This document shows positions 3,245-45,440 of a stretch of DNA of 64,000 nt, in pieces. Position 1 is the stretch's first letter, and each line of letters starts with the position of its first letter. The stretch is taken from contig OZ374562.1 of the NCBI GenBank assembly GCA_977862235.1, positions 1,922,001 through 1,986,000 of the forward strand. The letters run 5' to 3'. Below the pieces are notes generated by a model that saw only the letters and a list, made by a program, of their open reading frames with translations, was not told where the DNA came from and did no database searches. The translations under genes and the position numbers were made by a program. Origin of the DNA: Dudresnaya verticillata. Lineage: Eukaryota.

Positions 3245-3398
3245 CTCCAGCTGGCCGCTCGCTCCAGCTGACCGCTCGCTCCAGCTGGCCGCTCGCTCCA
3301 GCTGACCGCTCGCTCCAGCTGGCCGCTCGCTCCAGCTGGCCGCTCGCTCCAGCTGACCGCTCGCTCAAGCTGGCCGCTCGCTCCAGCTGGCCGCTCGT
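3245..3398. repeat. 17-bp minisatellite (CTCCAGCTGRCCGCTCG), about 9 copies
   Basis: Direct reading of tandem units upstream of the MULE ORF. Confidence 0.9.
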
Positions 3399-12119: not shown

Positions 12120-12288
12120 TGGAGGGTATGCGGGGGGCTGAGAGGGCGGTATTGCCCTTCCGCACCTCAAAAATCGCTCGACGGCCAACACGCCGGGGGG
12201 ACCCCCGGACCCCCCTTCTTTTGCGGCGCTTCGTGCCTTTGTTTGCACGATTGTCAACACAGTAGTTTGAGTAAAGACGACGCGTTTA

Positions 12289-15794: not shown

Positions 15795-16029
15795 TGTGTC
15801 GAAGTTGCTAGGGCAGGACGAGGAAGGAGCACTGTGGTCCGGATACGGTTAGAAATAAATTCAACCGGTAGAGTTTACACAGTCGTCGTATACACACCCA
15901 AATACCTATCTTCAGACTATTAGATTCACCCAATGAGCGCGGAACATATGGTGAAAAAATGCGCGTTAGAAATATAATTTACCGTACCGGTAAAAACGCT
16001 CTAAGAGCATTTCCGGCTCTGTTACACTT

Positions 16030-17629: not shown

Positions 17630-18467
17630 TGTGGTGCAACGCCCGAACAAGGGCGCAACCCCAGAACCAGACTCCGAGTGGTCCTCCCACGGGTTGGTAG
17701 CAGGCGACGGCGGTGAAGACGACGCCGGTTGGGTGGTAGAGCTAGGGACACGGGTTGTGCCCCGGATGGTTGAAACGTGGACGGGTCGACTGTAAACCCC
17801 CGGCCCACGTAGGAGTGCTGTAGTGCACGAAGAACGATGAAGGCGATTACGCCGGTGAGTACTGTTGAAGCCAGGCAGTAGAACGGGGTACATAAGCCCA
17901 AGTCGCGCACGGTGTCGTCACCGGGTGCGAAGGTGGGGGTATCCTCGAGTTCCTAGGCCTGCCTGGCGCTTTACTGTGAGCGGGGTTCACCCCGTATACT
18001 AAGTATCCCCCGCGGGAGATGCGCGCGCGTGTGTGGCGCCGTGCGCTTGACACTTAGCATGCGCGCGCACCGCGAGCTCACTCAAATATCGCGCAAAAAT
18101 ACCTAGCGTAGAAATACTACTACCGCACTGTAAATCAGTGTAATCTAAGGGTGCGCATTGCTGGGGCGCACCCGAGCGAGGATTCCCTCGGATATATTCG
18201 GCGCGCGTGTTACGCGTGTACACGTGGAGACGTGTCGCCCGTGTGTGCTGTTGGCGCGTGCTGTACGGGCGCGCGCGCACCGTGCCAAGGGCGCGTTCCC
18301 CATTGGTCGGATCTCGCACGCGCGGCATCCGCGCACAGGCCCATCCAAGCTGCCGGTAATCGGCGTATGTTATAGTCGCGGGTGCTCCGCGTGTACCGTC
18401 GTCCGCTCACCGCGCGAGCGGGTGTAGCGATATAAAACGGGGTTTTCCCCAGGGGTCTTGCACCACA
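17630..18467 (-). repeat. 3' LTR, family B (838 bp)
   Basis: TGTGGTGCAA...TTGCACCACA termini; reverse complement of 19403-20241. Confidence 0.92.
18431..18437 (+). promoter_or_regulatory. Candidate antisense TATA box in the U3 end of LTR B
   Basis: TATAAAA pointing out of the LTR toward the accessory ORF ATG at 18740. Confidence 0.4.
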
Positions 18468-18481
18468 TCGCCCCCCTCCGA
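18468..18481 (-). other. Polypurine tract
   Basis: GGAGGGGGGCGA immediately 5' of the LTR TG on the minus strand. Confidence 0.8.
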
Positions 18482-18739
18482 AGAGCGAAACCCGCGGTGC
18501 CGGCACTCATCTTCCAGTGTCATCACCCTGCCTGCGGAGTCTTCTCCGATTGTATCGCGCAGCAACAATCCCGCCGCCGTCTTGACGACTCGTCTGTTGG
18601 CTGACCGCGGCTCTCCGCTTTCCAACTTGGACGACTTGTGTGTGCGCACAACGTGTGTGCTTGGCCGCGTTAGTCGTTGCACGGCTCCCCGCGTATTCCC
18701 TCACCAGGCCCTTTCGCGGAAATCCGCTACACGGCAACT

Positions 18740-21700
18740 ATGAGCCAACCGCCGTCGGCAGTGGCGCCGGGTGCGACGGAAGCTGAGGATTTCTCGGAGA
18801 TCCAGCCCAACACGTCGGAGCCTGCGTCCACGTTCGCCCCGGTGCCGCAACCCGCGTTGGCTGCTGCGCACGTGACCGCCGACCTACCGGCCATCCCACG
18901 TCTACCACCGGTTCCTGCCCCGTCTCCATCGGCTCCATTCATGACGTCACCACCTCCGCCAACACCGACGTCGTTGTTACAGGAAATGGGGAATGCCCCG
19001 GTATCAGGGTCCCAATCATCTCATCTGTCGCCGTCGACGTACGCGGCGGCCTCGTCATCGGGGTTTGTCCCCATTCCTGTCGCACCGGCCCCGCCGACCA
19101 TCGAGTACCCGCGTCCGGCGGAGTTCGTCGGCATGGAGGTGGCGCAGGATCTTGACTTGTTTGCGCGTGCACTGTGGTTTCACCCACGCGACTGTCGAGC
19201 GATGAACATCATCGGGCGTTACGGTGTCGGCGGTTACTTGCCAGGGGGTCTCCCCGTCGATGTACTGCAGTCGGAAGACTGGCGCCTCCACGGGGCGATC
19301 CCAATTCACCACCTCAACGACCGGCACCGTCCCCTAGACGTAGTATTCCGCGATTGGGTTCGCCTTGTCTACCGGCGTCATACGAGCACCATCGGTCGTG
19401 GGTGTGGTGCAAGACCCCGGGGGAAAACCCCGTTTTATATCGCTACACCCGCTCGCGCGGTGAGCGGACGACGGTACACGCGGATCACCCGCGACTATAA
19501 CATACGCCGATTACCGGCAGCTTGGATGGGCCTGTGCGCGGATGCCGCGCGTGCGAGATCCGGCCAATGGGGACCGCGCCCTTGGCACGGTGCGCGCGCG
19601 CCCGTACAGCACGCGCCAACAGTACACACGGACGACACGTCTCCACGTGTACACGCGTAACACGCGCGCCGAATATATCCGAGGGAATCCTCGCTCGGGT
19701 GCGCCCCAGCAATGCGCACCCTTAGATTACACTGATTTACAGTGCGGTAGTAGTATTTCTACGCTAGGTATTTTTGCGCGATATTTGAGTGAGCTCGCGG
19801 TGCGCGCGCATGCCAAGTGTCAAGCGCACGGCGCTACACACGCGCGCGCATCTCCCGCGGGGGATACTTAGTATACGGGGTGAGCCTCCCTCACAGTAAA
19901 GCGCCAGGCAGGCCTAGGAACTCGAGGATACCCCCACCTTCGCACCCGGTGACGTCACCGTGCGCGACTTGGGCTTACGTATCCCGTTCTACTGCCTGGC
20001 TTCAACGGCACTCACCGGCGTTATCGCCTTCATTGTTCTACGTGCGCTACAGCCCTCTTACGTGGGCCGGGGGTTTACAGTGGACCCCGTCCACGTCTCA
20101 ACCAGCCGGGGCACACCCCGTGTTCCTAGCTCTACCACCCAACCGGCGTTGGCCTCACCGCCGCCGCCTGCTACCACCCCGTGGGAGGACCACTCGGACT
20201 CTTGTTTTGGGGTTGCGCCCTCGTTCGGGCGTAGCACCACAGTGGGGTCATCGCGCCGGACCTCGGCGTTGATTACGCGGTATACCGCACGAATGGTGAG
20301 GTGGATTACGTGTGGAATCTGGCCGGTTTAGACCTCCCTCAGGCTTGGCGCGGGCGTGAGCCGCGGGTCTCGCAGGCGGCGTTACTATTTGACGTCCAGT
20401 TGCGGAATGAGTTTCGCTACCTCCGCAAGCGCGGTAGCCTCTTTTGGGACAAGATCCGCTTCGAACGTCGTGAACGCTCACGTCTCGGCATCTTTATTCC
20501 CTATCCCCACGTCGAAGCTTCCCTCTTCAGAATGGTGTACCGCCGACGGTACTACATCGGCATACCGCTCGCCTGGGCATCAGTCGAAACCTGCGAGGGC
20601 TTCCTCGTAGAGTTGCCCAACGTGTTCGGGTATTGCATGAGCGAGTTCTTACGGAACCCGAACACGGGGTTGTGGACGGTGGCCTACACCGAATTCATCG
20701 CGAAGATCACCACGCATTGGCTTTGGGAGACGTATGATACCCTGCGCTTGTGGTTCTTACCTCCGACGGTGACGTCCCTTCTAGATGAGTTGGACCTCCG
20801 CACCGTGCTCGGTGGGCAAAGTAACGACGACGAACTTCGCAGATTACTGCAGCTTCATAGCACTATTGATTGGGACGATCCCGCGGTGGTGCCGCTGTCA
20901 AATTACAAACGCAGTAATCTGCGGCGTAACTTTTCGCCGGGTCGGCGTCACCCCACCTGCGGAGGTTTTGTCTGGTATGACCCCTGGCGACGCCAGCTCG
21001 TTGGCGAACACGAAGCGCGGTTTCACCGCGAACACCCGGTGCCGATGCCGGCGGATTATCCCACCGACTACCTGTACGATGCGATGGAGCAGGGTGTTGA
21101 TGAGGAGGGTAGCGGAGATTTCCCCGATGGTTATAACGTCCGCTTTTCGGGTCCCGACGTCTCTGCTCCCCCGACGTCATATGCCGATTTGGACGGCCCG
21201 CGGTCCCACGCACAACGCGAGTTGCGCGAGGGTGCGGAGTCGTCAGCTATGGGCATGGTTGTTCGGGATGCTACTGCTTCATCGCCGGAGAGAACTCCGA
21301 GGTTGCCTGATGCGCCGCTGGTCGATGCAACCGCAGAGGCCGTCACCCCGATTAACACGGGTGCCACTGGTGGCACACCCGGGCCCACCCGGCTCGCTAT
21401 GGGTGACTTTTTGCAGCGTTCCGGGGTTGAACTCGACTTGAATCTCTCGGAGCGTGAGCTCGGAGAGCGGCTTAGCGCTATTCTCACGGCTACTGCACAC
21501 GAAGCTGGCGATGGTGGGGCCCGTTCACACGCGCCACCTGCGATGGAGTCGACTCCGGTTAACAGGGCGTCCAACCCCCTCGGGTACAGAGCGGCGATGG
21601 GCACGTAGTTGGCTCCAGGGGCCGCGAGCGCGACTGCAGGTCATGAACCCATGGACGTAGCTCCGGGGAACCCGCCGAATGAGGCGGAGTTCGCCCTAGA

Positions 21701-21791
21701 GAAGGGTGGCGAGGCGACGGACACCAATGCTGAGCCCGGCGGTGATATCACTGGTGATCCCATGTTTGCATGGATGAAGCGCACGGATTAG
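18740..21791 (+). CDS. Antisense accessory protein of chromovirus B (~674 aa to 21608, ~735 aa if the TAG is a mutation), interrupted by a solo LTR; function unknown
   Basis: Removing 19403-20241 plus one TSD copy gives a continuous frame ...TIGRG-VIAPDLGVDYAVYRTNGEVDYVWN...; Pro/Ser-rich N-terminus, Trp-rich globular core, acidic tail. Confidence 0.8.
19403..20241 (+). mobile_element. Solo LTR, family B
   Basis: TG...CA termini; TSD GTGGG (19398-19402 / 20242-20246). Confidence 0.93.
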
Positions 21792-21850
21792 CCGCGTATA
21801 TTGGCGTCGGTGCCAGTGCCGACGGGCCCACTGTGAAGCATATAGTCGTA

Positions 21851-23480
21851 GTCGAAGCGGGCGATCCGCGTGGAAATGTTCGTTGTTTGGTCAACGTGAA
21901 ATAAAAACCAACTTGCTTAGTTATCCGTGTTTTGGACACTCATTGAGTAACAACGTTGCTGGTTCAACTTCCAAGGTAGGTTCGACGAGTTCCAACGTTA
22001 GGTAGAATCCGAGCGGTCTAGCCGCGGGTGAATACTCGTTGCTTGTCAACGCCCAAACCATGAGCTTATCCTGGCGAAGCATGCTCACGTTAGTGTAGCG
22101 GAGGCGGTTGATCCGCGCGAAGGTTAGTCAAAATGAATACGCTCGATTGCACGTTAGGCGCCCGAGGGCAAGACCCGTTAACGAGACTCACGACCATTTC
22201 GCATCGGACACTAACAGTCGTTGAGCGGGACTTCCGCGCCTCGGTACGTGTTGGCTAGCAACGCTGCTAAGTCACCCTTCCAGCTTTGCCACCAGGCGAG
22301 GAGCTCTATAAGGTGTGGCGAGAGCGGAGTCGTGGGGATCCACTGTATCATTACCATGTTGCCACGCCGTTTGGTCATTCGTGTTGTCTGAACGGTACGT
22401 ATCGCATGAAGCGGTTGCCCGCGTAAAGCAACGCGATGTCATTAGCGTTAGCATCCGTGTCCGTGGTCGTAATTCAAGCGGTCTGCCCGCGTGGAGATTC
22501 CCGCTGATGATCAGCGTGAAGACAGCCAACGCTTGTCTCGCCACTGAACCTTGAGGGGGAACGATCTTATTGGGTCCATATTGATGCCCGTTCTTGCGGA
22601 GGCTCCGCGTTTTGCTATCAGCGGACGTAATCCCTCCGCGTATCGGTACCCGTTCGCGGGCAGAATAAGTCATTAATACGATCGTCGTGTCCACGTTAGG
22701 GTCGACGCACTGGCGCATTTCCAAGCTATGCGGTGATGGCCGGATCACGCGGGGAGCCACGATCGCTGTTAGTGCGTCGTTGCTACTCGTTGATGTACAA
22801 CGTCGTCTTGTCTGGTTTGCCGTAGCAGGTGACGGTTTTCGCATTTGCGTAGTAGCGGTCTTCGTGTGGTGCCACAGTAACAATTTTCTTCATAGGCCAT
22901 GGTAGATTATTCGTCGTATGTCAGCGTTATTAAAATCACGCCTTCTGGGCGCAGGGTCTCATTCGCCCCGTAGGTGATCTTGGCCTCACATAGGGTGCCA
23001 TTACGGCACCGAATTAGCGGTGGTCGAAGCGGTCCGACCGCGTTAAAGTCCGCTGTTGGGCAACGTATGGGAGTCACCTCCCCCGACATCGAGTCCCGTT
23101 GGGCGGTCATCAGTGTATTTGCGTCGTGGGGAATGCCTCGCCTGGAGTTCACACGGGGCGTAGCAACAACAGTCATGAAGAGAGCGGTCTGCCCGCGTGA
23201 TGATGTTCGTTGGTAGACAACCTGAGTCGGACCGGACGGGTTAGCTTAAAACTTCGCCTCGTGCCATAGCTGGCGTTAGTTCCCGACACCATGGATCCTT
23301 CGCGTGATGATATTGGTCGTAACGCTCCATCCGCATAATGATACTCGTTGGTCCTCAACGTCGTTTCATCTTTCCTGCCGTAGGGGGCGTCGGCCGGCCT
23401 GTAATATTGCGTGTTCGCGACGCGCGGTGGTAACGGCCGACGTGTGGACTACGGTTTGCTATTCGTTGTGATCCAACGCG
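21851..23480 (+). repeat. Interspaced array of a bipartite palindromic motif GCGG-N5-CCGCG-N10-CGTTG-N5-CAACG (~12 full or partial units)
   Basis: Second-half motif starts at 21881, 22037, 22249, 22434, 22502, 22651, 22788, 22912, 23051, 23208, 23346 and 23464; spacers are unique. Confidence 0.8.
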
Positions 23481-23535
23481 TTATAGCTGCTTTCGTCACT
23501 TGGGCTGCCGCTGTAACCGCTCCTGTTGAGGCAAC

Positions 23536-23829
23536 TCAACCCACCATGGCGCGGTGTAAGTCGTTGGGCGTTCCCAGCCTAGCCCTACGGCAATAGCGCA
23601 GGACCTGACTGCGAGGTAGGTTTTCGATCGGCTCGAGTGTGTTCGCGGAACTTGGATATCCAAACCACTTGAGCTCGTAGAGAGTACCCTCGTTAGCGTA
23701 TTCGTGGTTAACCACTTTCTCGATGACAAACATTGTACGCGGAGCTCCCGTAGTGGGGTGTACAGTAGATGGTGCCGTTACTGTAGAGCGAGGATTGGCC
23801 TCAGCATGAGGAGTCGTGGGTATGACCAC
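23536..23829 (-). CDS. Chromodomain at the integrase C-terminus (fragment)
   Basis: FVIEKVVNH...YELKWFGYPSSANTLEPIENL. Confidence 0.85.
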   Translation of the reverse strand: MVIPTTPHAEANPRSTVTAPSTVHPTTGAPRTMFVIEKVVNHEYANEGTLYELKWFGYPSSANTLEPIENLPRSQVLRYCRRARLGTPNDLHRAMVG

Positions 23830-24939
23830 TGGATTTTGATCGATGTCACGCGCCGTGCTGTGGTGGCGCCACCCGTGTTCTGTCGTGGGGTCGACCCCGT
23901 TGTGGTTTGGCGCAAGCGTGCACTCCGACGCGGCTGAGTGGCGATTACACGAGGATTAGCTTCGCTGCGTGCCGTCGTTGACGAGCTCGGCTCGCCTCGT
24001 TGGTCCTCGGAGGCGTCTCCGCTCTTGTCGACACCGTCCACGCTTGCGGCTCGCCTGAGCTGTCTGGTCTGTGCACCGTCCGACGACGAGTCATGAGAGC
24101 TGTAGAAGCGGTCCTCGCTGCGTGGTTGAAAGAAGGCATCACTCACCAGTCTAGGGCAAATGCGCGCGCTAATCACGTGCGCTTGACAGCACGATTACGC
24201 GCGCGCGCACAAACCGCCCCAAACGCGCCCGTTGGGGGGTTTCGGTGAGAGTACAACTGGCGCCAAATGTGCTTAAAACAATCTCAGTAAATAATGTATC
24301 GTGCAGAAAATGGGGTCTTAATTCATTGAACGTGCCAAAAGGCATCCACCGCTGTGATTTGTAGGGGCGAAAGTTTGTCCTGCTGAGTAGAAAGGCCAAG
24401 TTTGGAATCATAAACCAAGAGCTCCGAGCTAGTTCTATCATGAGAATGGAAAATATTTTTAAATATAGAAGATTTCGTTGCGAAAGTCGACGTCAAAAGT
24501 GCGAAACTTTCCCTAAAATGCGATAGTTTCGCATCTCTCAGACCATGGCTGGGTAAGATGTTTCCGAATTTTCGAACATTCGCACTTTCCCGGCCTTCCA
24601 GGGTTCTGTTCTTCGAGAACAAAAGCATGTTTTTCAGAAAGGCACCAATACGGCGCAACTTATGCCATATTAATATATGCAAAATCGAAACTTTCGCGAA
24701 ACTTTCGCCGGCAAAGATGTTACAAACGAAATGATTTTATGGGCACATAATTATTGCACTCCGAGATTCTATTTTGGCCAACGATGCGACGCTCAGAAGG
24801 CGGGTTACTGCACAAGCTTGATATGGGCCTTCTTGTTCCTTGAGACCTTGTCTGGAACCGTCTGCAAGAAGTCCTGGTGAACCTCTCGTGCTTTCAGAGC
24901 ATCGCACTCAAGGGCTGTGACCATCGTGGGACTGCAAAG

Positions 24940-32751: not shown

Positions 32752-33287
32752 TGTAGTATAGACGTCGGGTCGATCCGACGTCTAATATCGCTGGTCTGAA
32801 GCCGCCACACAGACCCGTCGATGGGTAGCTGTTGTGTGTGGTAGAGTGGTGTCGGTCGCGTGCGCCCCCGCAGGTGCGGATCGACGGCGTCGATGCCGGA
32901 GCGGGCACGGGGCGTACCGTACGCGGGTAGGCAGCGGCCGGATCCCAGCGTCCCTGTAGAAGGGCGGCACGAAGCCGACGGAAAGGAAAAGGAAAGGGAA
33001 AAAGCTTAGCGAGGCAAGGGGAAAAAGGGAAACCGCCCGCTGGCGTAAGGCAAAGGGATCGAACCCGAAGAGGCTGGGGGCAAGCTTCAGCGCGAGCTGT
33101 TGCTTCCCCGGTTTACTGAGCCGTCGATGGCCGACGGCCTTAAATACCCTACGGTATGTACACTACGGCTACTCTACAGTAGGTGCGCCCCACAACACCA
33201 ACGCGGGAGTTGTGCGAGCGCGCGCCCATACACGTGTCGAAACGTCCGGGTAATGACTACCCGTGGGCGCGCGCGGGGCGTAACGGG
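32752..33287 (-). repeat. LTR C copy 1 (U3 side truncated, more diverged)
   Basis: Matches 45508-46043 with more mismatches than copy 2 does. Confidence 0.88.
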
Positions 33288-34061
33288 TGTAGTATAGCTG
33301 TCAGCACACTATCAGCAGCGGCTGTAAGGTATGCTGGCCGCGCCGCACTGTAATGGTGCACACGATGACGCCCGCTGGCGAGTCGTGATTGGGCAGCGTG
33401 CCCTTAGCTTTTTCGTTGAATTAGTAGCGGTCGACCGCATTGCTGCCGGCAGCGGCCGCGCGCCGTGCCGCACACGGCGCGCCCCTGTGAAGCTCTCCGG
33501 CATCGAGCCGTTGAGAGGGCCGCTGCCCGTTACGCCCCGCGCGCGCCCACGGGTAACCGTTACCCGGACGTATCGACACGTGTATGGGCGCGCGCTCGCA
33601 CACCTCCCGCGTTGGTGTTGAGGGGCGCACCTACTGTAGAAGTAGTCGTAGTGCACATAGTGTAGGGTATTTAAGACCGTCGGCCATCGACGGCTCAGTA
33701 AACCGGGCAAGCAACAGCTCGCGCTGAAGCTTGCCCCCAGCCTTTTCGGGTTCGATCCCTTTTCCTTACGCCAGCGGGCGGTTTCCCCTTTTCCCCTTGC
33801 CTCGCTAGGCTTTCCCCTTTCCTTTTCCTTTCCGTCGGCTTCGTGCCGCCCTTCGACAGGGACGCTGGGATCCGGCCGCTGCCTACCCGCGTACGGTACG
33901 CCCCGTGCGCGCTCCGGCATCGACGCCGTCGATCCGCACCTGCGGGGCGCACACGGCCGACACCGCTCTACCAACCCCAACAGCTACCCATCGACGGGTC
34001 TGTGTGGCGGCTTCGGACCAGCACGTATCAGACGTCGGATCGACCCGACGTCTATACTACA
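33288..34061 (+). repeat. LTR C copy 2 (774 bp, inverted)
   Basis: TGTAGTATAG...CTATACTACA; near-identical reverse complement of 45508-46281. Confidence 0.92.
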
Positions 34062-35940
34062 CTCGCGGAATTCGACTTCCAGATCGAGTACCGTCCGGGT
34101 AGGGTACACCATGTGCCGGACGCGCTGTCCCGCCTGGTGAGGCCTCGACGGCAGCAAGAGGAGGTTGACGACGACGTCCCTACCTACGACCCCCCGGTGG
34201 TCGACGGCCAGAAGGAGGGTGCCTCGAGTACCGAACCCAAGGCACCGTCGGTCTTGCTGACCACGCGGTCCCAAGCCAACGCGTCGACGCGGAAGGCGCC
34301 GGATCGACCGGCTGCAGTGGGCGGCACTGGCAGCGAAGCCAAGGAGCCCTCAGACAGCGACGAGCCACCGGGGCTTGCCGACGACGAAGCCTGGGACGAC
34401 TGCGACGACGTCGACCTTTTCGACCTTGGCCGCATCGACGCGAGCCAAGAGCCGACGGACCTCACCCGGGTCGAACCGGTGAAGCTCCCTTCACCACTAA
34501 CCGTCGAGGAATTGGTGGATGCGCAGCGGCGCGATTCTTTTTGCCAAACAGTGTTGGCACGGCAGTCCCGTCGACGGGACAGCCACTTCTTCGAAGACGA
34601 GGGCGGGCTCCTGTGCCGGCGTCACCCCGTCATCTCCTCGCTGGAGCAAATAGTGGTGCCCGAAGCGCTACAGCCGCGGCTTCTCACGCTCGCGCACCAC
34701 TCCCTCCTGGCTGGCCACCCTGGCCAGAACAGGATGTTCTACACGCTCCGCGAGAGCTACTACTGGCCACACATGTCAGCGGACATAGCCATGACAGTTC
34801 GGAACTGTCGGCACTGTGCCAGGAGCCGCATACGCTTGCGGAGGTCCCTTCATCGGTTGAAGTTGTTCCCGGCCACGAGGCCGCTCGAGTCGCTCGCGAT
34901 CGATATCCTAGGGCCGCTGCCCAAGACGAAGTCAGGAAAGCGTCCTGCTCGTCATGACGGATCGATTCACGAAGCTGACTCAAGTAGCGCCGCTGCGCAC
35001 CATCACAGCGTACCACGTCGCAGTGGCATTCTGTGAGAGGTGGATCTTCCACTATGAACCACCAAGGTCTCTGTTGTCCGACAACGGGAAGCAATTCACC
35101 TCTAAGTTCTTTCAGGCCGTGTGCCGCTACCTCGGACTGAACAACGTGTTCACGTCCGCCTACCACCCACAGGCGAACGGTCAGGTTGAGGGCTACAACC
35201 GGACCGTCATGGCCATGTTGATGAATTACATCAACGATCACCAGGACGACTGGGATTGATACGCAGCGGCGTTGACGTATTCCTACAACTGCCATGTCCA
35301 TCGCACGACGCGGACGACACCCTTCAGCCTCGTGCTGTCCCGGCCGCCGCCGGAGTTCACTAAGTTTCATAAGGCAGCGGCCAGACCGAAACCTAGTGAG
35401 GACGTGCGCGCGGACTTCCTCAAGCGGCTCGACGCCGCTTCGCAAGCGCATCGAGCGCTCTCGACAAAACGCAGCGGCGTTACAAGAAAGTATGTCATTG
35501 TCAGAAAAGTCAACTCCCGCATTCGAGCGGGATACTACGTCTTCATCGCCGCGAGCGACGGGGTTAAGAAACCCAAGAAGCTCCAGAGCCCAGCGATAGG
35601 GCCCTACCGCGTGCTGCTTAACGACAAGCGCACGCTGTTCATCGACAGAGGCGGCTTGGTCGAACGCATCGCAGCGGACCGCGCCGTCTACTGTCCCCCG
35701 CCGCTGTGGGAGGATACTGCGCAGCGCAGCGCCTACTTACCCACCACTGAGGAACTCGCGTCCGAAGCCGTCGATGGCCCGCGGTTCGTGGTAGATAAGG
35801 TCCTTGACCACGGTACAGCCGACGATGGCACGCTCGTGTTCAAGGTGAAGTGGACCGGCTATCGCAAGCCGACGTGGGAGCCACGTTATCATCTCCCCGA
35901 GGAGATGGTGAGCCACTATTTCGCATCGCAGCGGCGGTGA
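34062..35940 (+). pseudogene. RNase H end, integrase (HHCC, DDE) and chromodomain, frameshifted
   Basis: LAEFDFQIEYRPG...DALSR; AHH...GHPG...YYWP...CRHC; IDILGPLP; SDNGKQF; YHPQANGQVE; FKVKWTGY..PTWEP. Confidence 0.93.
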
Positions 35941-37304
35941 AACACCAACCGGCTCGAAGCCCTTCGCTCCTCCTCATAACCCCTCGGCGGGGCGCCTCGC
36001 GCTTGAGGAGGGGGCCGCAGGCATTCGTTGCCTTTTTGCAAAGGAAATCGATGCCTCACCCTACCCTGCACTGGGCACCGAGCCCAGACAGGTCACCCTT
36101 GCGCCAGCAGCAGCGGCAGTAGCGCAAGAGGGGGCAGCAGAACGCTGATTCCGGCGCATCGATGCGCGGAGGGCAGCTGCCAGCTAACCAAGCCTGCGGC
36201 AGCGGCCCCGGGCTGGTTGCACGCACTCGCAAGCGGCGAGGAGACGCAGACGGTACCTCGCCTTCGCGCGTGACAGGCGTCGACGCCTCACGCACGCAAG
36301 GTAAGGGGCGCTGACCAGCGGCTACCGAAGCCGCTCACCAGCGCCGCGCACGCGGCGCTACCGTCGCTCACTCCAGGCAACCCTACGCGCCAGCCGCAGC
36401 GGCTGCTGAGCGAGGAGAGGTCACACCAGCGTTAGTGCGGAGCGGGCGCGTCGACGCGCCCAAGGCCGTCGCTGTCGAAGCGAAGTGGTGTGGGACAAAG
36501 GGCAGCGGCCCGATCGCCACTTCACTCGGGTGCACCGGAGTGCCGTTGCACTCGATGTGCAACGGCACCCCAAAAGCGAGCGTCACTTTTGGCGTGCGCC
36601 TCGGCGCGGGGCGCACGCAGCGCATCGAGCGCGAAAAGGGTTCCGGCTACAGTACGTACTGTAGCCGCGGGTCGGGAAACACCCAACCAGGCCAGCGGGC
36701 CGGAAGGCAACAGCCAATGCAAGGGGTTGCGAAAAATCCACAGCCAACGATTGGCTATAATTTGGGCGCAAACCGCCTCCCGGTGGGAGCAACAGCAGCG
36801 GCTGATCGAGCAGCCAGAAGCGGCGCGCCGCCGGCAAGTGGGTGCGAGGCAGCGGCCTCGCCAAAGCTAGCCGTCGCGGCACCAGGCGTCCAAGACGGGC
36901 GCGCAAGGGCAGCCACTGTGGTCTCCCCCATGCCAAGGCGGCATGCCGCGCAGCGGCGCCGGGGCACCACATGGGATCGGCACGCTTGCCTATTGCCCCT
37001 GAGCAGCGGCTCACGCAAGCCCCGCACCGAGACGACCGCTGTCGTGACGCAGTGGCGACGCACGCGGGCTCGATGCGCGCGCGCGCGCAGCACTCACCTT
37101 GGGCAGCGGTCCGACGTGGTGAGCTGCTGCGCCAGCGAACGCTCTCGCCACAAATAGGTTCGCATCGACGCGGCCCGAAGCCATATCCCACCCCTTTCCC
37201 TTTTAACATGTCTAACGACGCAGCGGCGTAACTGGACTAAAAGGCGCAGCGGCGCTCTAATCGCTGGGTGCCGCGGCACCCGCGGATACTATGCGTCGAT
37301 CGCA
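35941..37304 (+). repeat. Hairpin-rich non-coding array of alternating GCAGCGGC and GCRTCGAYGC motifs (~100-nt period)
   Basis: GCAGCGG(C) at 36110, 36199, 36396, 36502, 36795, 36849, 36950, 37003, 37103, 37220 and 37246; TCGA palindromes at 36156, 36277, 36448, 37162 and others. Confidence 0.65.
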
Positions 37305-40207
37305 CTATTGGGCAACGTTGACCCCGGCCCCCGCTTCCGGCTGAGCAGTCATCGACGACGCACAGCCAGGAGCGAAGGGGTCATAACCGGTCGCCTCGGC
37401 CGCAGCGCGCGGCTGAGTTAGCGCGGCAGCGCCCGCCGCGGTACCCGACGCGTGGTACACCGCAGCGGCGCCAGCGGCAGCGGCCACTAACCCAGCAGGG
37501 CTCACTTGCCCCACTGGGGGACCATACCCCTGCGGCATGTAGCCCGGGGGGACGGGCGCAGCGGCGCCCGGCTGCTGTGGGACTCCACTGCCCTGCACCA
37601 CCATTGACGGGGTGTAGCCGGAAGGGCCCCAGGGGAGCATCTGGCCAGCGGGCCCGACGGCATAAGGTAGCATCGGTTGCTGCGCAGCCTGCGCTGGCGC
37701 ATAGGACGGCATCGGCTGCTGCGTCGGCGCCAGCATCGGGGGCGGCTGGTACTCCTCTCGTGGCCGCTTCCGAGGGACCCGACGACTGGGGATGAATGGG
37801 CAGCGCGCCTCAACTCTCCCTGCAGTCGTTGCGCATCGTGCGCAAACCTGTCCCGCTCGGTGCGGTAGCGAAGGGCGATGGCGTTCGCAGCGGCGAGCTC
37901 GTCATGCGTTCCCGTTAGATGGGCCGCAAAGGCGGCAACGAGGGTGCGCAGCGGCGCTTCCTCACCGAACTGTACCAGTGCAGCGGCGCGGCGTACATTT
38001 TGGTCGCTCCAGAGGCTCGCTGCCATCGGCACATCGAGCGCATCGGTTGTGGGCGGCGGCACATAGGCAGCCACCGCCATCGATGGCGGTGGGCCATACC
38101 TCACCGCCTGCCTCGACGGCGTATAGGCAACGGGCAGCGGGTCGACTGCTGCCTGCTTCTCCTGACCTCAGTCCATGGCAGCGGCCGGGGGAGGTGGTGC
38201 CACAGCTCGAGGTGCTGGTGCCGCGGCACGCGGCACCGGTGGCAAGTAGGGCTCGGCCTCCGAGGCCATAACGGCAGCGGCCGACTTGGAAGCCCCACCT
38301 AGGCCCCGACGGGCGCGCGGCTTAGCGGCCCGCTCGACGCGGGCCATGTCCGCCATCGAGGCGTAGCCACGATCCTTCCGCGGCGCGCGTGCGCGTTGGA
38401 TCTTGTGAAAGGTCCCCGCCACTGGGTTGACCCCGCAAATGAACGCATCGACGCGTGTTGCAAAGTGGCGGCGACGGGTGTGCTTCTCTCTGGCAGCGGC
38501 CACGAAGCGCGTCGTGTTCAGCAGCTGCTTTAACTCGAACGTCACCGAAGTGTTGTCCGGGCCTGCCGCGCCTCGGAGGCGTGGGAAGCCCGGGCGCCCG
38601 CTGCGCCACAGTACATCGAGGTACACCAAAATGCGGTCGTCGAGGACCCAGCAAATATCCTTCGATAGGATGTCGGAGGCGTAGCGACGCCCCACCTCAA
38701 AGGCATACTCGTCGGAGCGCCTAGCGAGGAGCTCTCGACGAACTGCCTCCTTTCCCGCCGCGGCGTAGTGGAAATATCGCTCGATGCTGGGCCACGGGAC
38801 GATCATGCCAGCGGGCACGTCCCGGTGCGAGTACCACTCCGCGGAGGGAAACCACGACGCGTCGAGCGCCGGGTGCAAGCGGGCACCCGTGGTGATGAGC
38901 CCATCACCGGGGGCGCGGCAGGTGGCCCAGTCCCGCTCCCCCATGCACAGCCCGAGGATGCGGCGGGCGCAGTTGGCATCGGCCAGACCGCGCGCCTCCT
39001 CCGGCGTCTCCTCGATGGGGACGTCCCTCAACCAATCCAACGAGGCCGCGAGGGGCTTGTGGGACCCATCGACGGGTTTCACAAAGAGGGCTTCGGCGCC
39101 CTTATCCACGATCAGCAGCTGCTTGATCGTGGTGACGAACGAAACGTCACACGGTAGGCCGTTCGGTACGAGCCATACCGGCGATGCGGGCATGAAGGCG
39201 TTGTTGGCAGCGGCCCCGCCATCGTCGCTCGCATCTGCCACGCGCAGGAGACGTTGGACGTCAATCCTTTGCACGGGCAACCGACGTCACTGGTCCAGCG
39301 GGATCTGGTGGGGCGGTGCCTCCCACGCGAAGACAGTGGGAGGCAATGCGGCTGCATTGGGCACCGCGACACCGAGTCGCTGGGGCCCAATGGTCAGAGA
39401 CACCCCTCGCATGGTGATCACCGGCAGAGGGGGAGCCATGGCAGCGGCCGATGACGACTCAATGGCAGCGGCCACGCTTGTGCCAGGGGCGGCCGACGCC
39501 CCTGCTCCGGGGTCGCCTTGCGCCGATGCGCTGAGGCCCCGGCGGGGCACGAATGGAGCCGCAGCGGGCGGCATCCTGCTCCCCCTTGACGCGGAGGCCG
39601 TCGACGACCCCGTCAGATCAAGGGCACGAGCCACGGGTGGCGCATCGACGCGCGGAGCAGCAAAGGGCACAGCGACTGGAGCCGCCTCCTCTGGGCATGG
39701 GGCGGCAGCGGCCGCCCCACTCCGGTCCAAGCCACCCAAACCTCGCAGCGGCGTGTCTTGGGTGGTCACCTCGACCTCCTCGTAGCTCGGCAGAGGTCGT
39801 GTAGCCTTACCCCGGGCCAGCGCAGCGGCTGCTGGCTCCGGAGGCACTCGGGCGGGAGACGTGTCAACCGCAGCGGCGGGACGCATCTCCGATGTCTTAG
39901 CGGGCGCAGCGGCGCCCGCTCCAATTTGGTCAGCAGCTGCTGGACCAATATGCGCAGCGGCGCCGACCCCAGCCGCCGGAGCAGCAGCGAGGCCACTGGG
40001 CACCGAAGCCGCCACCGCAGCGGGCGGTGGGCATGGCAGCGCAGCGGCGCTTGCCCCCAGCGCATCCTGCGCCTGGGGTTGTGGGGCATCTGCCACCGCT
40101 TCCGCCGGTGCAGCCGTCGATGGCGCACCAGCGGGCAGCGACGGCGTGGTTGCGGGCGCCCCTTCGTCAGGGGCGCCCCGGGTGGCAGACGAGCGCGTCT
40201 TGGCCAT
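37305..40207 (-). pseudogene. Antisense accessory protein of chromovirus C (~900-960 codons; two TGA stops, one frameshift); function unknown
   Basis: ORFs 39287-40207, 38168-39280 and 37502-38104 share one frame; Ala/Pro-rich ends and a globular core; candidate TATA (ATATAA, minus) at 40371-40376. Confidence 0.75.
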
Positions 40208-40489: not shown

Positions 40490-43135
40490 CGATATAGGGA
40501 CGCAGGGTTGTGATCGACCACACCACTGCAAAGCACTCGCGCTCCGTGGCCGAGTAGTTTCGCTCCGCTGAGCTTAGTGAGTAAGACCAGTACCCAACGG
40601 GGTGTAACTGGCCGTCCTCTTGCTCCTGGAGCAGGGCGCATCCGAGCTGGTACGCCGATGCGTCCGTGTCGAGGACGTACGGCTTGCCCTCGCGCGGGAG
40701 CCGTAGGATAGGAGGCGATAAGAGTGTCGCTCGCAGCGTCTCGAATGCCTCTAGCGCCGCTGCGCTTGGATTATCGAAATCCACATCCGCATCCTTGCGG
40801 GTCATATCCGTCAGCGGACGAGCGATCTTCGCGAAGTTCCTGACGAAGCGGCCGTAAACGTTACACGCCCCGAGGAACGACCTCACCTTCGTTAGGGAAG
40901 TCGGGAACTGCGCATGGCGGAACGCGTCGATGCTTGTCTTCGCCATGCGTAGTTTCCCCGGCTCGATCACGTGACCGAGGTAGTCCACGCGGGACTGGAA
41001 GAAGTGGCACTTCTTCAGCTTCAGGGACACGCCGCCCTTGCGAAGCGGAGTCAGCACGCGGTCTAGGTGACCGACGTGCTCCGCGATCGACCGCGAGAAT
41101 ATGATCACATCATCGAGATAGATCAAACAACACTGCCATCTACCTCCGCTGAGTATGATGTCCAGTGCACGCTGGAAAGTCGCGGGGGCCCTCTTCAGTC
41201 AGAAGGGCATCCGCAGGTAGCGGAACGTCCCTAGGAACGTCGTGAACGTGGTCTTATCCCTGTCAGACGCTGCGACAGGGATTTGCCAGTACCCCGCGTT
41301 ACAATCCAGCGTGGAGAAAATGGCAGCGTCGCCAAGACTGTCGATACAGTCATCCATGCGTGGGAGTGGGTACGCATCGCTCAGGGTTTTGGTGTTAAGA
41401 CGTCGATAGTCCACGCAAAACCTGAGCGTGCCATCCTTCTTGGGCGCCAGAACGACTGGCGATGCCCACTCCGACGTGGCGGGTTCGATTACCCCTGCCC
41501 GCAGCATGGTCTCGACCTCGTTCTGTACGAGCTTCCGCATAGCGGGGCCCTGTCGATAGGGCATTGAGCGAATCGGCCGCGTGCCGGGTTCCACGTCGAT
41601 GTAGTGTTGCGTAGCGGCAATCGTGCCGAGCGTCCCGTCCCACATGGACTGATGCTTCCGAAGCATGGTGAGGACTTCTTCGCGGGTGACCTTGTCTTCG
41701 ATAGACGAAAGGTCCACCTGCGACTCCCACTCCTCGACGGACTCGCTTTTCTCCGCCGCTGCGGTCGCTGCTCCTTGGAGCTTTGTGGGCTCGGGGCCCC
41801 TTGCCATCGACGGCGTGACTGGGGGGTCGTTGCTCCCCTTACCCCTGGGCCGCTGCCCTTTGGGGGGAAGGGTGGTGATATTCATCACCCTTCCGAACTC
41901 CTCCGCGACGTCGCGGTCCGGGGTTATTAGGGCGACTGGGTTGCGGACCGCATAGCCGACCACGGTACCCTTCGGTAGGGTCCGGGCCTTGTCAGTCCAG
42001 TTGCCCAAGATAACCCCGAAGGGTCGCCCCGACTCGATGTCGTGCACCCCGTTGGTCAGTCTCACGCCGTGGCGGAACTGCAACGAGGGTTTGGGCTCCG
42101 TGTGGACTAACCCACTAGCCCCCGACGTCACCGAGACGAGCCTCTGCGAGTAGGCTGGGACAACCACCTGCCTAGCGAGGCGTATGGTGTGGGTATCATG
42201 ATCCCAGTCGAGGAGCTCCCGCTGGTGCTTCTTCGACAAACCCTTCGATGGGTTCTTCGGCTGCGTTGCCGGACCGGTTCCCTCGCTAGGTTCCTGCGGC
42301 TGAGAATGGGCACCGAGCCTCCTTTCCTCAGCGTCAGCCTTCTCAACTCGACGTCGATTCCGCGCACGTGCGTGTTGATAAACTGCGTGCCTATCAGTAC
42401 GTCGACCGCGAGCGTGTCGGCGACGATGAAAGGCACGCGGAACGTCGTGTTCCCTAACCTCATCGAGAGGTGGACGACGGCGGACAGCCTCAGCGGAGTC
42501 TTGTCGGCGCCTGCCAGGCGTGGCGCGGAGTCGATCTCTGACGCGTTTTCCTCCCAGCCTGCGGGCAGGGCACCTCGAGCGATGAGGTTGTACCCGGAGC
42601 CAGTGTCCACCGCGATGGTATCATAACCCGCGGGTCCGCACCGAGGGACCCGGACACTCGGTAAATCTCGGAGGACAGGAGGCATACGTACCCATCGGGG
42701 GTAGTGGCCGGCTCTGCGTCGATGCGTGGAGCCCCGGTACCCTCGCGTCGAGCGTCGGGTACCGCCTGTCCCGCCGTTGGGGAGCTGCGCCCTTTCCGCC
42801 TGGCCTGTCGCTTGCGTCGACGCCGCGGCGGCCAGGGTGGTTTGGTACGCGTCGCCCACGACGTCCCGTCGACCGCGACGTCGCTCGTGTCCTTCGAAGC
42901 GCCGCTGCGCTCGACGTGGGGGCTCGCTGCCCCCAACGCCGTCGAAGGTGGAAGGGATGGTGGGTCTGGTGTTGGACAAGACGGTGCGCGCGACCGCACG
43001 AGCGGCGCCGCCTTTATTCTTTTTCCGGATCGACCCGGTCAGAAATATCATCGGAATCCGAACTTTCGTGCTCGATTCCGATTGGGTGTTTCGTAACCCC
43101 TGAGGCGCCTCGCATCGATCGCGGAGGCGTGTCAA
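40490..43135 (-). pseudogene. pol: aspartic protease, reverse transcriptase and RNase H (frameshifted, cut in RNase H)
   Basis: VDTGSG; WASPVVLAPKKDGTLRFCVDYRRLN; YLDD; LDTDASAYQLG; ERNYSATERE. Confidence 0.95.
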
Positions 43136-45440
43136 AAAGGAGAGGGGAATCGCTTCCCTGCCCGCTGGCTGTCTCTCCCTTGTGCCGCGCGTCGAGCGCT
43201 TGCGGAAGCCACTCGTCGGCGGTGAGGCCTGTGTGCTCCTGCACCGTCATAACTGATCGGAGCAGTTCGCGGCGCGGGTCAGCCCTCGGAGGCGTCGATG
43301 CCTGAGGTTGACGGCCAGCGGGCTCATCAAAGCCGACCCGCTTATCGCGCAGCAGGAACCGTGGTGCGTCGCCTTGGCGGTACTCGCGGCGTGGGTCTCG
43401 ACGATCCCCGCGGTACCCCTGCGGCTCTCCGCGGTACCTTGGTGCATCCATGCGCTGCGGGGGACCTCTCGCGTCGAAGCGTCGGTCCCCACCCCGCGGC
43501 GCGTCGTAGCGCCGCGCGGGGTTCCTTGTCCTTGCGCCCGCTGGCGCGCGCTCGTCGATGAGCTGTTGGAGCATATTGCGCGAATGCGGCTGCGTTTCCA
43601 TTCGATGGTTGCAGTTCGCATACGCGCAGTACGTCTGCTGTTCCTTCGTGAGGTACGGGCACGAATACATGATGTGCCCGACCTCACGGCAGAACCAGCA
43701 GATGTACCATCCCTGTCGATCAGGGATGACTGCGCGTGCCATCGCCTCCTGCGTTGGAGTGAGCGGTGGTATGCGCTTGGGTAGGACTGCGTCGATGCGT
43801 CCTGTAATGTCGAGAGTCTCGACGGCCTCGGCCGACCCGGCTGTCGATAGCGCGGGTGCGACCATCACGGGTTCGAACCCGTCGGCGTCAGGGTCCACCA
43901 GCATTGTGCTGTTGATAGCAACGTCCCCGCTGGGATAGCTTGGTGGGCCCTCGATGAGCAGTGTACGGCCGCTTGCCGAGCTGCCACCTGACCTGCCGCG
44001 CCCCGAGGTGTTCGTAGGCTGCGCTGCCTTTGCCGAACGGGCGCGGTAGGTTGTGCCCTCGCTATGGGCAATCCGACGAACGGTACTAAAATTGGTCTGT
44101 TCGACCATAGGCAGCTGCCTGACCTTCTCCGCCACTGCGGGTCTTGTCGTGGGCAGCAGGCCCCGAAGGAACGGATGCGTCAAGTTCTCATCGGAGTACA
44201 CGCCAGCGCAGGCGTCCGCATACCCTTCGAGGCGACTAGCAAACTCAAGCTCGGACTCGGCGTCCCTCTGCTTGGCGGTGGTCAGCCGGTCATGGGCGTC
44301 TGCGATGACGTCGTCCGTGACGAACCTCTCGACGAGGGTATTGACCACCGAGGCCCAGCAGGGTGGGGTGCCGCGCTGCGTTGTGCGCATCCCAGAGAAC
44401 AGGTGACTCCAGTACACCTGCGACGCGGTTCCATCGAGGAACCAGGACACCACACGCGCCGCTGCGCCTTCGGATAGTCCAACGCCATTGAATGCTTGGC
44501 GTAGCTGTTGAAGCACACTAAGCAGGCGAATCGGCTCCTTGCCGTCGAACCGGTCGAGCCGGGGCATCAGGGCCTTCATGCGGCTGATAATCTTCGCAGT
44601 GTTGCCGCTGCACACCTGCTGTTGATTGTCCCGCTGATCTACGTCATCGAGACGGTACGAGCGGTAGTCGATCGCCTTAGCGAACTCTGGCACCAACGTG
44701 GTTAAAGGCTCGATGCCTGCCATGAGTGGGCCCCAATGCCAATAGGCAGAGACGGGGCCCTCGTGCTGTTGGGGGGTCGGTCCCCCCTTTGTGTTTTGCC
44801 CGTCGAGGGCTTGTTGGAGCAACCTGGGGTCGACCCCGTAGAACGGATTGGGGTCCCGACTCGGATGGTGCGACCCCGCCGCACTCCTTGGTGGAGATGG
44901 CGGTGGTGAAGGAAAGCGATGCCGGGCTCGTTGCTCGGCAAGTATGGCAGCGGCCAATTCTTGAACTGCACCCGCTGGTGACTGCGGTCGCGGAGTAGAG
45001 CGCTGCGCCGACGACGGGCCTGTAACCCGCTGGCGTTGCCGCGTCGGCGCGCGCTCTATCAACTCAACGCGGCGGCGTAGCTCATCGAGGAGCCCCTGTG
45101 ACCGGGTTATTCCGTCCTCGATGGACGCCAAAGGACCGCGTCGAAGCGTGTCCAGGTCTTGCTGGCCGTCGGCCTTCGCCTCAGCTATCGAAGCTGTAAG
45201 GTGGTCGTACACCTCGGCTAGCGAGTCCATGGTCTCCTCATACAGCAGCTGGAGGTCGGCCACCGAGACCAGACTCCCGGCGAGGGCCTTTTGCAGCGCG
45301 GCCCTCCGCTCGAGCCTCACATCGTGTAGAGGAGTACCTGAGACGCCGATGGTACTCAGTATTGAGGTGCGACGCGTCGCGTACTCAACTTTTCCGGCAG
45401 CGGCCGATGCGGCAGCGGCCGGGTCAGGAGGACTCGACAT
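43014..45440 (-). CDS. gag: Gag polyprotein (808 aa)
   Basis: Follows LTR and PBS; FDGKEP...; Q...ES...FASRL; CWFCREVGHIMYSC zinc knuckle. Confidence 0.88.
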   Translation of the reverse strand: MSSPPDPAAAASAAAGKVEYATRRTSILSTIGVSGTPLHDVRLERRAALQKALAGSLVSVADLQLLYEETMDSLAEVYDHLTASIAEAKADGQQDLDTLRRGPLASIEDGITRSQGLLDELRRRVELIERAPTRQRQRVTGPSSAQRSTPRPQSPAGAVQELAAAILAEQRARHRFPSPPPSPPRSAAGSHHPSRDPNPFYGVDPRLLQQALDGQNTKGGPTPQQHEGPVSAYWHWGPLMAGIEPLTTLVPEFAKAIDYRSYRLDDVDQRDNQQQVCSGNTAKIISRMKALMPRLDRFDGKEPIRLLSVLQQLRQAFNGVGLSEGAAARVVSWFLDGTASQVYWSHLFSGMRTTQRGTPPCWASVVNTLVERFVTDDVIADAHDRLTTAKQRDAESELEFASRLEGYADACAGVYSDENLTHPFLRGLLPTTRPAVAEKVRQLPMVEQTNFSTVRRIAHSEGTTYRARSAKAAQPTNTSGRGRSGGSSASGRTLLIEGPPSYPSGDVAINSTMLVDPDADGFEPVMVAPALSTAGSAEAVETLDITGRIDAVLPKRIPPLTPTQEAMARAVIPDRQGWYICWFCREVGHIMYSCPYLTKEQQTYCAYANCNHRMETQPHSRNMLQQLIDERAPAGARTRNPARRYDAPRGGDRRFDARGPPQRMDAPRYRGEPQGYRGDRRDPRREYRQGDAPRFLLRDKRVGFDEPAGRQPQASTPPRADPRRELLRSVMTVQEHTGLTADEWLPQALDARHKGETASGQGSDSPLLFDTPPRSMRGASGVTKHPIGIEHESSDSDDISDRVDPEKE

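What the first reader, a model, noticed from the sequence alone, without database searches (positions are those of the whole stretch)
17630..24110. Candidate new module in chromoviruses: antisense accessory protein plus cognate interspaced motif array
Seen: two distinct Gypsy chromovirus families (B here, C at 32752-46281) share the same extra layout 3' of the chromodomain: a non-coding motif array, then a large ORF antisense to pol (next to the PPT/3' LTR in B). Each family has its own motif, and that motif also occurs in its own LTR (B: GCGG-GTGCT-CCGCG at 18378; C: GGCAGCGGCC and GCATCGACGC). Known: Arabidopsis VANDAL DNA transposons encode VANC anti-silencing proteins that bind family-specific motifs amplified within the element. 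Antisense extra ORFs are also known in some plant Gypsy elements, mostly without function. Inference: this is a family-specific protein-plus-array system, either DNA binding sites for anti-silencing/activation or a processed structured-RNA array acting with the protein.
Basis: partly seen in the sequence, partly recalled or inferred. Interest (0 to 1): 0.9.

Follow-up and report, generated by a model that had tools for sequence, protein, structure and literature searches.

The report
Backwards retrotransposon gene with hairpin barcodes
Two broken jumping genes, likely from a red seaweed, carry a conserved extra gene read backwards plus family-specific short self-complementary DNA words; these likely act as tiny RNA hairpin tags that let each family recognise its own copies, but the long array seen here is not a fixed partner of the gene.

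Summary
B (17630-~24140, 5'-truncated) has chromodomain, a 1.9-kb array, an antisense ORF split by a same-family solo LTR, PPT and 3' LTR. The ORF belongs to an unnamed family (441 relatives; one from a red alga), antisense behind pol in 34 of 41 long related loci, under purifying selection, with a confident predicted fold; C's ORF is probably a remote member. But 32 relatives have only 148-881 nt and no array there. C's "array" is no discrete array: its motifs are 4-bp-stem mini-hairpins (fixed loop, covarying arms, 46 of 50 paired) scattered through the whole element, coding regions included, biased to the genomic strand. Related clades use other loops; one clade has no hairpin excess yet keeps the ORF. 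Best reading: family-specific self-recognition tags, most likely RNA hairpins read by the accessory protein (0.4); Gag packaging signals (0.3) and VANC-like DNA sites (0.2) remain open. Antisense ORF plus 3' arrays is known (Retand, Boty); the family and the hairpin barcodes were not found in print.

The parts
17630..18467 (-). B 3' LTR (TG...CA); one GCGG-N5-CCGC site at 18378, about 40 nt upstream of a plus-strand TATAAA at 18431 that faces the antisense ORF (promoter role inferred)
18468..18480 (-). B polypurine tract
   Evidence: sequence
18740..19402 (+). B antisense ORF, first piece (221 codons, no stop; low-complexity start, then family profile positions 18-119)
   Evidence: (E=1.6e-19)
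19403..20241 (+). Same-family solo LTR inserted in the ORF, opposite orientation to B, target duplication GTGGG, 95.6% identical to the 3' LTR
20247..21608 (+). B antisense ORF, second piece (family profile positions 122-410, then low-complexity tail); holds two GCGG-N5-CCGC sites (20883, 21017)
   Evidence: (E=5.5e-97)
21610..23535 (.). B motif array: 8 GCGG-N5-CCGCG sites and 8 CGTTG-N5/6-CAAC(G) sites, often as a composite unit of about 40 nt with a 25-nt register
23536..23739 (-). B chromodomain (end of pol; upstream pol is missing)
   Evidence: (PF00385 E=2e-9)
32752..33287 (-). C 3' LTR remnant (94% identical to the 5' LTR); flanking duplication GTCAG/GTTAG, one mismatch
33288..34061 (+). 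C LTR copy in inverted orientation (98.1% identical), joined at its end to the tail of RNase H
34064..35940 (+). C RNase H tail, integrase and chromodomain (inverted block, frameshifted); carries mini-hairpins at 6.4 per kb
35941..37400 (+). C non-coding stretch ('array'): mini-hairpins at 11 per kb, 13 of 14 CAGCGG cores on the genomic strand
37401..40207 (-). C antisense ORF (about 900 codons, two in-frame stops and a frameshift; end approximate); core 38171-39286 is a probable remote member of B's family
40506..45440 (-). C gag (with CCHC knuckle), protease, RT and most of RNase H; carries mini-hairpins at 5.7 per kb
45508..46281 (-). C 5' LTR followed by a TGGT-type primer-binding site; 11.6 hairpin cores per kb

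Best explanation
B and C are broken chromodomain LTR retrotransposons, likely red-algal, that carry a conserved antisense accessory gene and family-specific short self-complementary words; the words likely fold as 4-bp-stem hairpins on the element's RNA and are likely read by the accessory protein, which would thereby single out its own family's transcripts for protection, export or packaging. Shown: the gene family, its antisense position behind pol, purifying selection, vertical inheritance with pol, the motifs, their clade specificity, and in C their covarying 4-bp arms and strand bias. B's array is read as a local amplification of a 40-nt two-hairpin unit, an optional feature and not a fixed partner.
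For: 441 relatives of B's core at E<=0.001; profile from those proteins alone hits 31 of 80 related loci at E<0.001, all on the minus strand; with a second profile 34 of the 41 loci long enough carry it behind pol and 38 of 38 hits are antisense. dN/dS 0.09-0.39 in the 10 pairs with 67% or more identity and dS of 0.18 or more. Confident model of the closest homolog, pLDDT 91.9, pTM 0.90; many conserved Arg, Trp and Tyr. The ORF is the fastest-changing gene (35-48% identity where pol segments are 53-81% and Gag 56-71%), as expected of a specificity factor. C hairpins: first and second flanking pairs complementary in 46 and 38 of 50 sites (permutation means 19.5 and 15.6, maxima 31 and 27 in 5000); pairing 0.88, 0.81, 0.72, then 0.33, against 0.27 for 3193 other 4-nt loops; 31 hairpins in coding stretches against about 1 after synonymous shuffling; genomic-strand bias 13:1 in the non-coding stretch, 22:9 in gag-pol plus INT, 16:3 for the second loop. 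Other clades have other loops: RACTC 35 in L023 (1.4 expected), CWAG 22 in L046 (0.6), AGCG 47 in C (0.7), with a compensatory T-A/C-G change at a homologous site in L046/L055/L080.
Against: Eleven of 33 loci, one clade at 100% bootstrap, show no hairpin excess (ratio 0.74-1.07) and still keep the ORF under purifying selection; 32 of 32 measured gaps lack an array. ORF and pol trees agree, so motif and protein changing together is explained by linkage. Reverse-oriented C hairpins are as well paired as forward ones (14 sites: 0.86, 0.93, 0.71) and the RACTC/RAGTG clade shows no clear strand bias (L023 20:15), which fits DNA as well. B has the opposite grammar (fixed arms, free centre) and its array shows no folding excess (mean z -0.3 and -0.4; hairpin ratio 1.37, z 1.9). 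The C-B homology is modest (E=0.0019, probability 14.6%). Several distant or decayed pairs give dN/dS 0.38-0.84. An antisense TATA like B's was found in 0 of 12 related LTR starts.
Confidence: 0.4

Rival explanations
1. The hairpins are dispersed packaging signals read by Gag, giving family-specific packaging of the genomic RNA; the antisense protein is a separate regulator and its position next to B's array is incidental.
For: Dispersal over the whole genomic RNA, a shared loop on short stems and genomic-strand bias match the packaging-signal pattern of RNA viruses (PMC6281560, passages). C's Gag has a CCHC knuckle and 21 of 29 related loci examined have one. The ORF persists without hairpins in one clade. 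Unchecked earlier notes describe similar hairpins in copia-type elements (a lead only).
Against: The hairpin-free clade also keeps Gag with its knuckle, so it does not favour Gag. Reverse-oriented hairpins are equally paired. B's motifs have fixed arms and free centres, unlike loop-read signals.
Confidence: 0.3
2. One reading: the protein binds the motifs as duplex DNA, as a dimer on spaced palindromes, and lifts silencing or activates the LTR and its own antisense promoter.
For: B's sites are classic spaced inverted repeats with a free 5-nt centre and a fixed 25-nt register; one site lies about 40 nt upstream of the antisense TATAAA; B's array has no folding excess; clade-II words occur on both strands equally. 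Precedent: VANC21 binds a nine-base motif amplified as tandem repeats (PMC5735166, passages); Retand TRP28 is predicted to bind DNA (PMC11963269, passages).
Against: Covarying arms with more than 10 arm types and a sharp end at four pairs are not expected when half-sites are read independently. C's words sit inside coding regions too, whereas VANC motifs are described in non-coding regions. No VANC-type Pfam domain in 101 family members. Arrays are absent from 32 of 32 relatives measured.
Confidence: 0.2
3. The words are by-products of mutation (template switching that perfects palindromes in C; local duplication in B) and have no reader; only the ORF is functional.
For: Both orientations are equally symmetric; other palindromic 6-mers in C show slightly raised flank pairing (0.29-0.37); the ORF does not need them in one clade.
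Against: The symmetry is tied to specific loops, ends abruptly at four pairs, and 3193 other loops sit at background; it survives a synonymous-shuffle control; in B the arms are kept while centres and linkers have diverged; non-LTR regions of the window show ratios of 1.02-1.18.
Confidence: 0.1

Closest known systems
Antisense additional ORFs between pol and 3' LTR (aORF-3R): maize Grande gene23, rice RIRE2, Silene Retand, PvRetro13 (Vicient and Casacuberta 2020, PMC7264820; parts 1-2 of 3 read)
   Same: Conserved ORF antisense to gag-pol between pol and the 3' LTR, present in most copies, function unknown, regulatory role proposed.
   Different: Here the carriers are chromoviruses, likely of red algae; the protein has no Pfam match shared by its members; clade-specific mini-hairpins are not mentioned in the parts read.
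Retand elements with TRP28 antisense ORF and family-specific tandem arrays (Vicient 2025, PMC11963269; first fifth and passages read)
   Same: [quoted passage not shown]
   Different: Retand is non-chromovirus and angiosperm; its arrays are tandem repeats, whereas B's and C's are interspersed palindromic words that Tandem Repeats Finder does not report; no Transposase_28 hit.
brtn of Boty-like Ty3/Gypsy elements of Botrytis cinerea (Zhao et al. 2011, not read; cited in PMC7264820 and in passages of PMC8365987)
   Same: An antisense extra gene in a non-plant Gypsy element.
   Different: Fungal; no sequence comparison was possible; that Boty is a chromovirus is recalled and stated in unchecked earlier notes, not shown by a call.
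VANC/VANDAL anti-silencing system (Hosaka et al. 2017, PMC5735166; passages)
   Same: Element-encoded fast-evolving protein and family-specific short motifs amplified within the element.
   Different: VANDAL is a Mutator DNA transposon; VANC has DUF1985/DUF287 and binds a fixed duplex word in non-coding tandem repeats; here C's words have free but complementary arms and invade coding regions.
Multiple dispersed packaging signals of ssRNA viruses and HBV (Twarock et al. 2018, PMC6281560; passages)
   Same: Many short stem-loops with a shared loop motif spread along a packaged genomic RNA.
   Different: Described for viral capsid proteins; my search for the same in retrotransposons listed only this review; reader here unknown.

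Membership tests
Chromovirus (Ty3/Gypsy with chromodomain) | Chromodomain at the end of integrase, gag-PR-RT-RH-INT order | tested here: met
   C: Retrotrans_gag, RVT_1, RT_RNaseH, Integrase_H2C2, Chromo; B: Chromo only, upstream pol missing
Chromovirus (Ty3/Gypsy with chromodomain) | TG...CA LTRs, PPT/PBS, 5-bp target duplication | tested here: met
aORF-3R (antisense additional ORF) | Long ORF antisense to gag-pol between pol and 3' LTR | tested here: met
   B directly; 38 of 38 ORF-bearing loci antisense
aORF-3R (antisense additional ORF) | Present in most copies and conserved as protein | tested here: met
   34 of 41 long loci; dN/dS below 1 in all 18 pairs
aORF-3R (antisense additional ORF) | Transcribed from its own antisense promoter; nuclear protein (shown for Grande gene23) | not testable with these tools
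   Only a TATAAA at 18431 and NLS-like basic runs in C, L064 and L071 (pattern recalled)
Retand / TRP28 | Transposase_28 (PF04195) domain | tested here: not met
   0 of 101 members at E<=0.1
Retand / TRP28 | Non-chromovirus lineage; tandem repeat arrays | tested here: not met
   Chromodomain present; no tandem array at 21610-23535 or 35941-37400
VANC/VANDAL | Host element is a Mutator-like DNA transposon | tested here: not met
   LTR retrotransposon
VANC/VANDAL | DUF1985/DUF287 or plant-mobile-domain sequence signature | tested here: not met
   No such Pfam family among 101 members or
VANC/VANDAL | VANC/MAIN-like fold | tested here: inconclusive
   Fold searches; whether the VANC21 structure is in the library could not be checked (paper not held)
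VANC/VANDAL | Family-specific motif amplified in non-coding regions | tested here: inconclusive
   True for B's array; C's motifs also fill coding regions; no array in 32 relatives
VANC/VANDAL | Sequence-specific duplex binding and loss of DNA methylation in trans | not testable with these tools
   needs EMSA/DAP-seq and methylomes
Dispersed packaging signals | Many short stem-loops with a shared loop along the genomic strand | tested here: met
   C; not shown for B
Dispersed packaging signals | Bound by the capsid protein, promoting assembly | not testable with these tools
   needs binding and assembly assays
Processed repeat-spacer RNA array (CRISPR-like) | Regularly spaced, near-identical repeats or a known RNA family | tested here: not met
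   B first-type sites are 91-433 nt apart; 0 Rfam matches in the window; no folding excess in B's array

The most novel reading that the evidence does not exclude
Red-algal chromoviruses carry an ancient, unnamed antisense protein that reads a family-specific barcode of 4-bp mini-hairpins written through the element's own RNA, coding regions included; loop and protein change together from clade to clade, giving each family a private self-recognition code among many co-resident relatives, an RNA-level counterpart of VANC.
Probability: 0.25. Interest if true: 0.85.

Novelty: new variant of a known kind. Interest (0 to 1): 0.62.

Why it matters
The function of antisense accessory ORFs of Gypsy elements is an open question in the reviews read. 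Here one such family has hundreds of members, uninterrupted copies, a confident predicted fold and, in the same elements, sharply defined clade-specific candidate ligands (AGCG, RACTC, CWAG loops; B's spaced palindromes). That allows a direct cross-binding test of protein against motif for several clades, and asks how a retrotransposon tells its own RNA or DNA from that of close relatives.

Tried and rejected
No whole genome is held, so genomic copies could not be collected. Sequencing runs: none was listed, no RNA holder listed; this is no evidence on expression. PDB sequence search with the family profile: 0 hits. ESM Atlas: no usable hit for P0001 or C. Single-sequence model of C's core failed (pLDDT 34.6). 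Homodimer prediction for P0001: no answer. Viral contigs held no relative of C's RT or B's ORF; prokaryote genome contigs were not searched (not run). Direct BLASTP of B against C: nothing; HMMER profiles did not hit C; only profile-profile comparison did. An apparent RT-versus-ORF tree conflict from the 133-residue RT tree, which would have suggested gene swapping, vanished with the longer pol tree. C/D-box or kink-turn reading of B's unit: considered by eye, not conserved, dropped. A G-U bias of B's inner pair to the plus strand (5 against 0) is too weak given strand composition. Two attempts to test a small C-terminal helical motif used the wrong frame, so it is untested. Literature: 10 searches listed no paper describing this red-algal family or such hairpins in Gypsy elements; subscription papers (Steinbauerova 2011, Zhao 2011, red-algal genome papers) and all supplements were not seen and may bear on this.


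Full report
Anatomy of B. B reads on the minus strand. From the right: a chromodomain (PF00385, E=2e-9) with no integrase or RT upstream in three-frame translation to 24700; a non-coding stretch 21610-23535; an ORF on the plus strand; a purine tract; and the 3' LTR 17630-18467. The long inverted repeat is not a pair of terminal repeats: 19403-20241 is a solo LTR of the same family, inserted in opposite orientation with a GTGGG target duplication and 95.6% identical to the 3' LTR. It splits the ORF into 18740-19402 and 20247-21608, which match consecutive parts of one family profile (positions 18-119 and 122-410).

B's motifs. Five of 8 first-type sites are followed by a second-type palindrome exactly 25 nt later and one at 23 nt: a composite unit of about 40 nt whose arms are kept while centres and linkers have diverged. 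Unit spacing is irregular (91-433 nt), there is no tandem array, no Rfam match and no folding excess (mean z -0.3 and -0.4 over 24 windows). The LTR site lies about 40 nt upstream of a plus-strand TATAAA facing the ORF; 0 of 12 related LTR starts showed such a box, so this is a weak hint.

Anatomy of C. 5' LTR 45508-46281, gag-PR-RT-RH on the minus strand to about 40506, then an inverted block holding an LTR copy, the RNase H tail, integrase, chromodomain, a non-coding stretch and the antisense ORF, and a 3' LTR remnant at 32752-33287; the flanks GTCAG/GTTAG look like a target duplication. The ORF has two stops and a frameshift.

C's motifs are mini-hairpins, not an array. Their density is the same in the 'array', the antisense ORF and the LTR (11.0-11.6 per kb) and half that in gag-pol and INT. 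Around GCAGCGGC the first and second flanking positions are complementary in 46 and 38 of 50 sites (permutation means 19.5 and 15.6; maxima 31 and 27 in 5000), the third in 15 of 50. Counted from the closing C-G pair, C[AGCG]G (67 sites) pairs at 0.88, 0.81, 0.72, then 0.33; C[ATCGAC]G (16 sites) at 1.0, 0.75, 0.62, then 0; 3193 other 4-nt loops pair at 0.27. Both are therefore 4-bp stems with a fixed loop and free arms (11 arm types). Eight coding stretches hold 31 such hairpins against about 1 after synonymous-codon shuffling. Orientation favours the genomic strand (13:1, 22:9, 16:3), but the 14 reverse-oriented copies are just as well paired, which RNA-only recognition does not explain unless the CGCU loop is also accepted.

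The protein. HMMER found 441 relatives of B's core at E<=0.001 among 50%-identity representatives; of 10 clusters looked up, one member has a name, an unnamed product of Agarophyton chilense, so the host is likely a red alga (inferred). No Pfam family is shared: 7 families matched one member each of 101. AlphaFold2 of the closest homolog P0001 with 133 rows gives pLDDT 91.9 and pTM 0.90; fold searches are listed under Tried and rejected. Conserved columns are rich in Arg, Trp, Tyr, Pro and Glu, without a Cys/His cluster. C's core aligns collinearly over 89 columns with the family's best-kept motifs (E=0.0019, probability 14.6%) and scores 28.3 against a maximum of 17.7 for 125 decoys: probably a remote member. 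The long antisense ORFs of L064, L071 and L077 behave similarly.

Relatives. Using C's RT, 80 loci were fetched from metagenome contigs (best 80 of 527); many are near-duplicates, so they are not 80 independent lineages. A profile built only from the proteins hits 31 of the 80 at E<0.001, all on the minus strand. With a second profile built from 28 of those ORFs, 34 of the 41 loci that extend 4.2 kb past RT carry the family, and all 38 ORF-bearing loci have it antisense behind pol; of the 7 misses, three are the L064 group and L002 has a hit at E=0.0015. dN/dS of the core is below 1 in all 18 pairs: 0.09-0.39 in 10 pairs with 67% or more identity and dS of 0.18 or more; 0.49-0.84 in 3 close pairs whose RT is equally high (0.55-0.73, decayed copies); 0.38-0.74 in 4 distant pairs; no replacement in one. 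ORF and pol trees agree, and the ORF diverges faster than pol or Gag.

Do ORF and array go together? No. In 32 loci with both a chromodomain and the ORF the gap is 148-881 nt (median 308) with no B-like array, and top word enrichments are mostly at control level, against -log10 p of 13 for B's array and 54 for C (exceptions are C/G runs, L023, L035, L046 and L067). What recurs instead is the C-type signal. Of 33 long loci chosen from the 80, 22 have 1.26-2.06 times more 4-bp hairpins than resampled sequence (z 4 or more), as do C (1.61) and B (1.51), while 11 do not (0.74-1.07) and other window regions give 1.02-1.18. Loops are clade-specific: AGCG and ATCGAC in C, RACTC/RAGTG in the L008-L023-L054 clade, CWAG/ATAA in L046-L055-L080 (these patterns were picked from the same data, so the expectations are optimistic). 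The 11 hairpin-poor loci are one clade at 100% bootstrap and keep both the ORF (dN/dS 0.09-0.29 in four close pairs) and, in most, a Gag knuckle.

Mechanism. I commit to hairpin tags on the element's RNA read by the accessory protein (0.4), because complementary free arms demand a single-stranded structure, the orientation is biased to the genomic strand and the ORF is the fastest-changing conserved gene. Gag-read packaging signals (0.3), VANC-like duplex sites, which fit B best (0.2), and a mutational by-product (0.1) are the rivals.

Comparison with the literature. Antisense ORFs between pol and the 3' LTR are known in plants and in Boty (PMC7264820, parts 1-2 of 3), and Retand elements combine them with family-specific arrays in about half of the elements (PMC11963269, first part and passages); the layout is therefore not new. 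Plant eORFs fall into many unrelated groups, and that survey's main text has no mention of red algae (PMC6317226, passages). VANC details are from passages of PMC5735166 and PMC13547354, dispersed packaging signals from passages of PMC6281560. Ten searches listed no description of this family or of such hairpins in Gypsy elements (see Tried and rejected). Earlier notes of this scan describe similar hairpins in copia-type elements and zinc-cluster antisense genes in fungal Gypsy elements; these are unchecked leads. Verdict: a new variant of a known kind, with a testable set of candidate ligands; interest 0.62.

Noticed in passing
window 32752-46281: Element C is internally inverted: an extra LTR copy (98.1% identical) sits inside the 3' LTR in opposite orientation and is joined at its end to the tail of RNase H, while about 30 RNase H codons and the ORF's upstream region with the PPT are missing at the other junction near 40505. 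Nested insertion plus deletion, or an autointegration-like event, are both possible.
   Followed up: partly
window 1256-2191 and 30836-31667: Two 94-96% identical blocks, each with an LTR related to C's and shared upstream flank; more like a duplicated segment with a solo LTR than the two ends of one element. Each keeps one C-type AGCG hairpin.
   Followed up: partly
window 3562-7485: MULE transposase (PF10551) preceded by a 505-aa ORF with His, Asp, Gln and Cys spaced like a Ulp1-type protease (pattern recalled; no Pfam hit), and a 17-bp tandem array at 3241-3397 upstream.
   Followed up: partly
L031 3713-5437, L032 3184-3648 (L049 similar, broken): A DLF...NPPF adenine-methyltransferase-like domain follows pol in these relatives, which also carry the antisense ORF; fits the Pyropia DAM-LTR clade of bioRxiv 10.64898/2026.05.21.726589 (passages).
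   Followed up: partly
window about 21405-21500 and the C-termini of P0003, P0004, P0021, P0027: A short, seemingly conserved helical motif after the disordered linker of B-family proteins (seen by eye); my two tests used the wrong frame, so it is untested.
   Followed up: no
window 10952-15848, 25333-25899, 47570-51030, 62580-63500: Other mobile elements: a PIF/Harbinger-like element (Plant_tran) interrupted by a LINE RT, a DDE_Tnp_4 transposase, further RT fragments and a DUF7869 ORF.
   Followed up: no
L067 (whole locus): AACACGCC enriched (11 copies, 0.35 expected) in a locus without INT or the family ORF behind RT.
   Followed up: no
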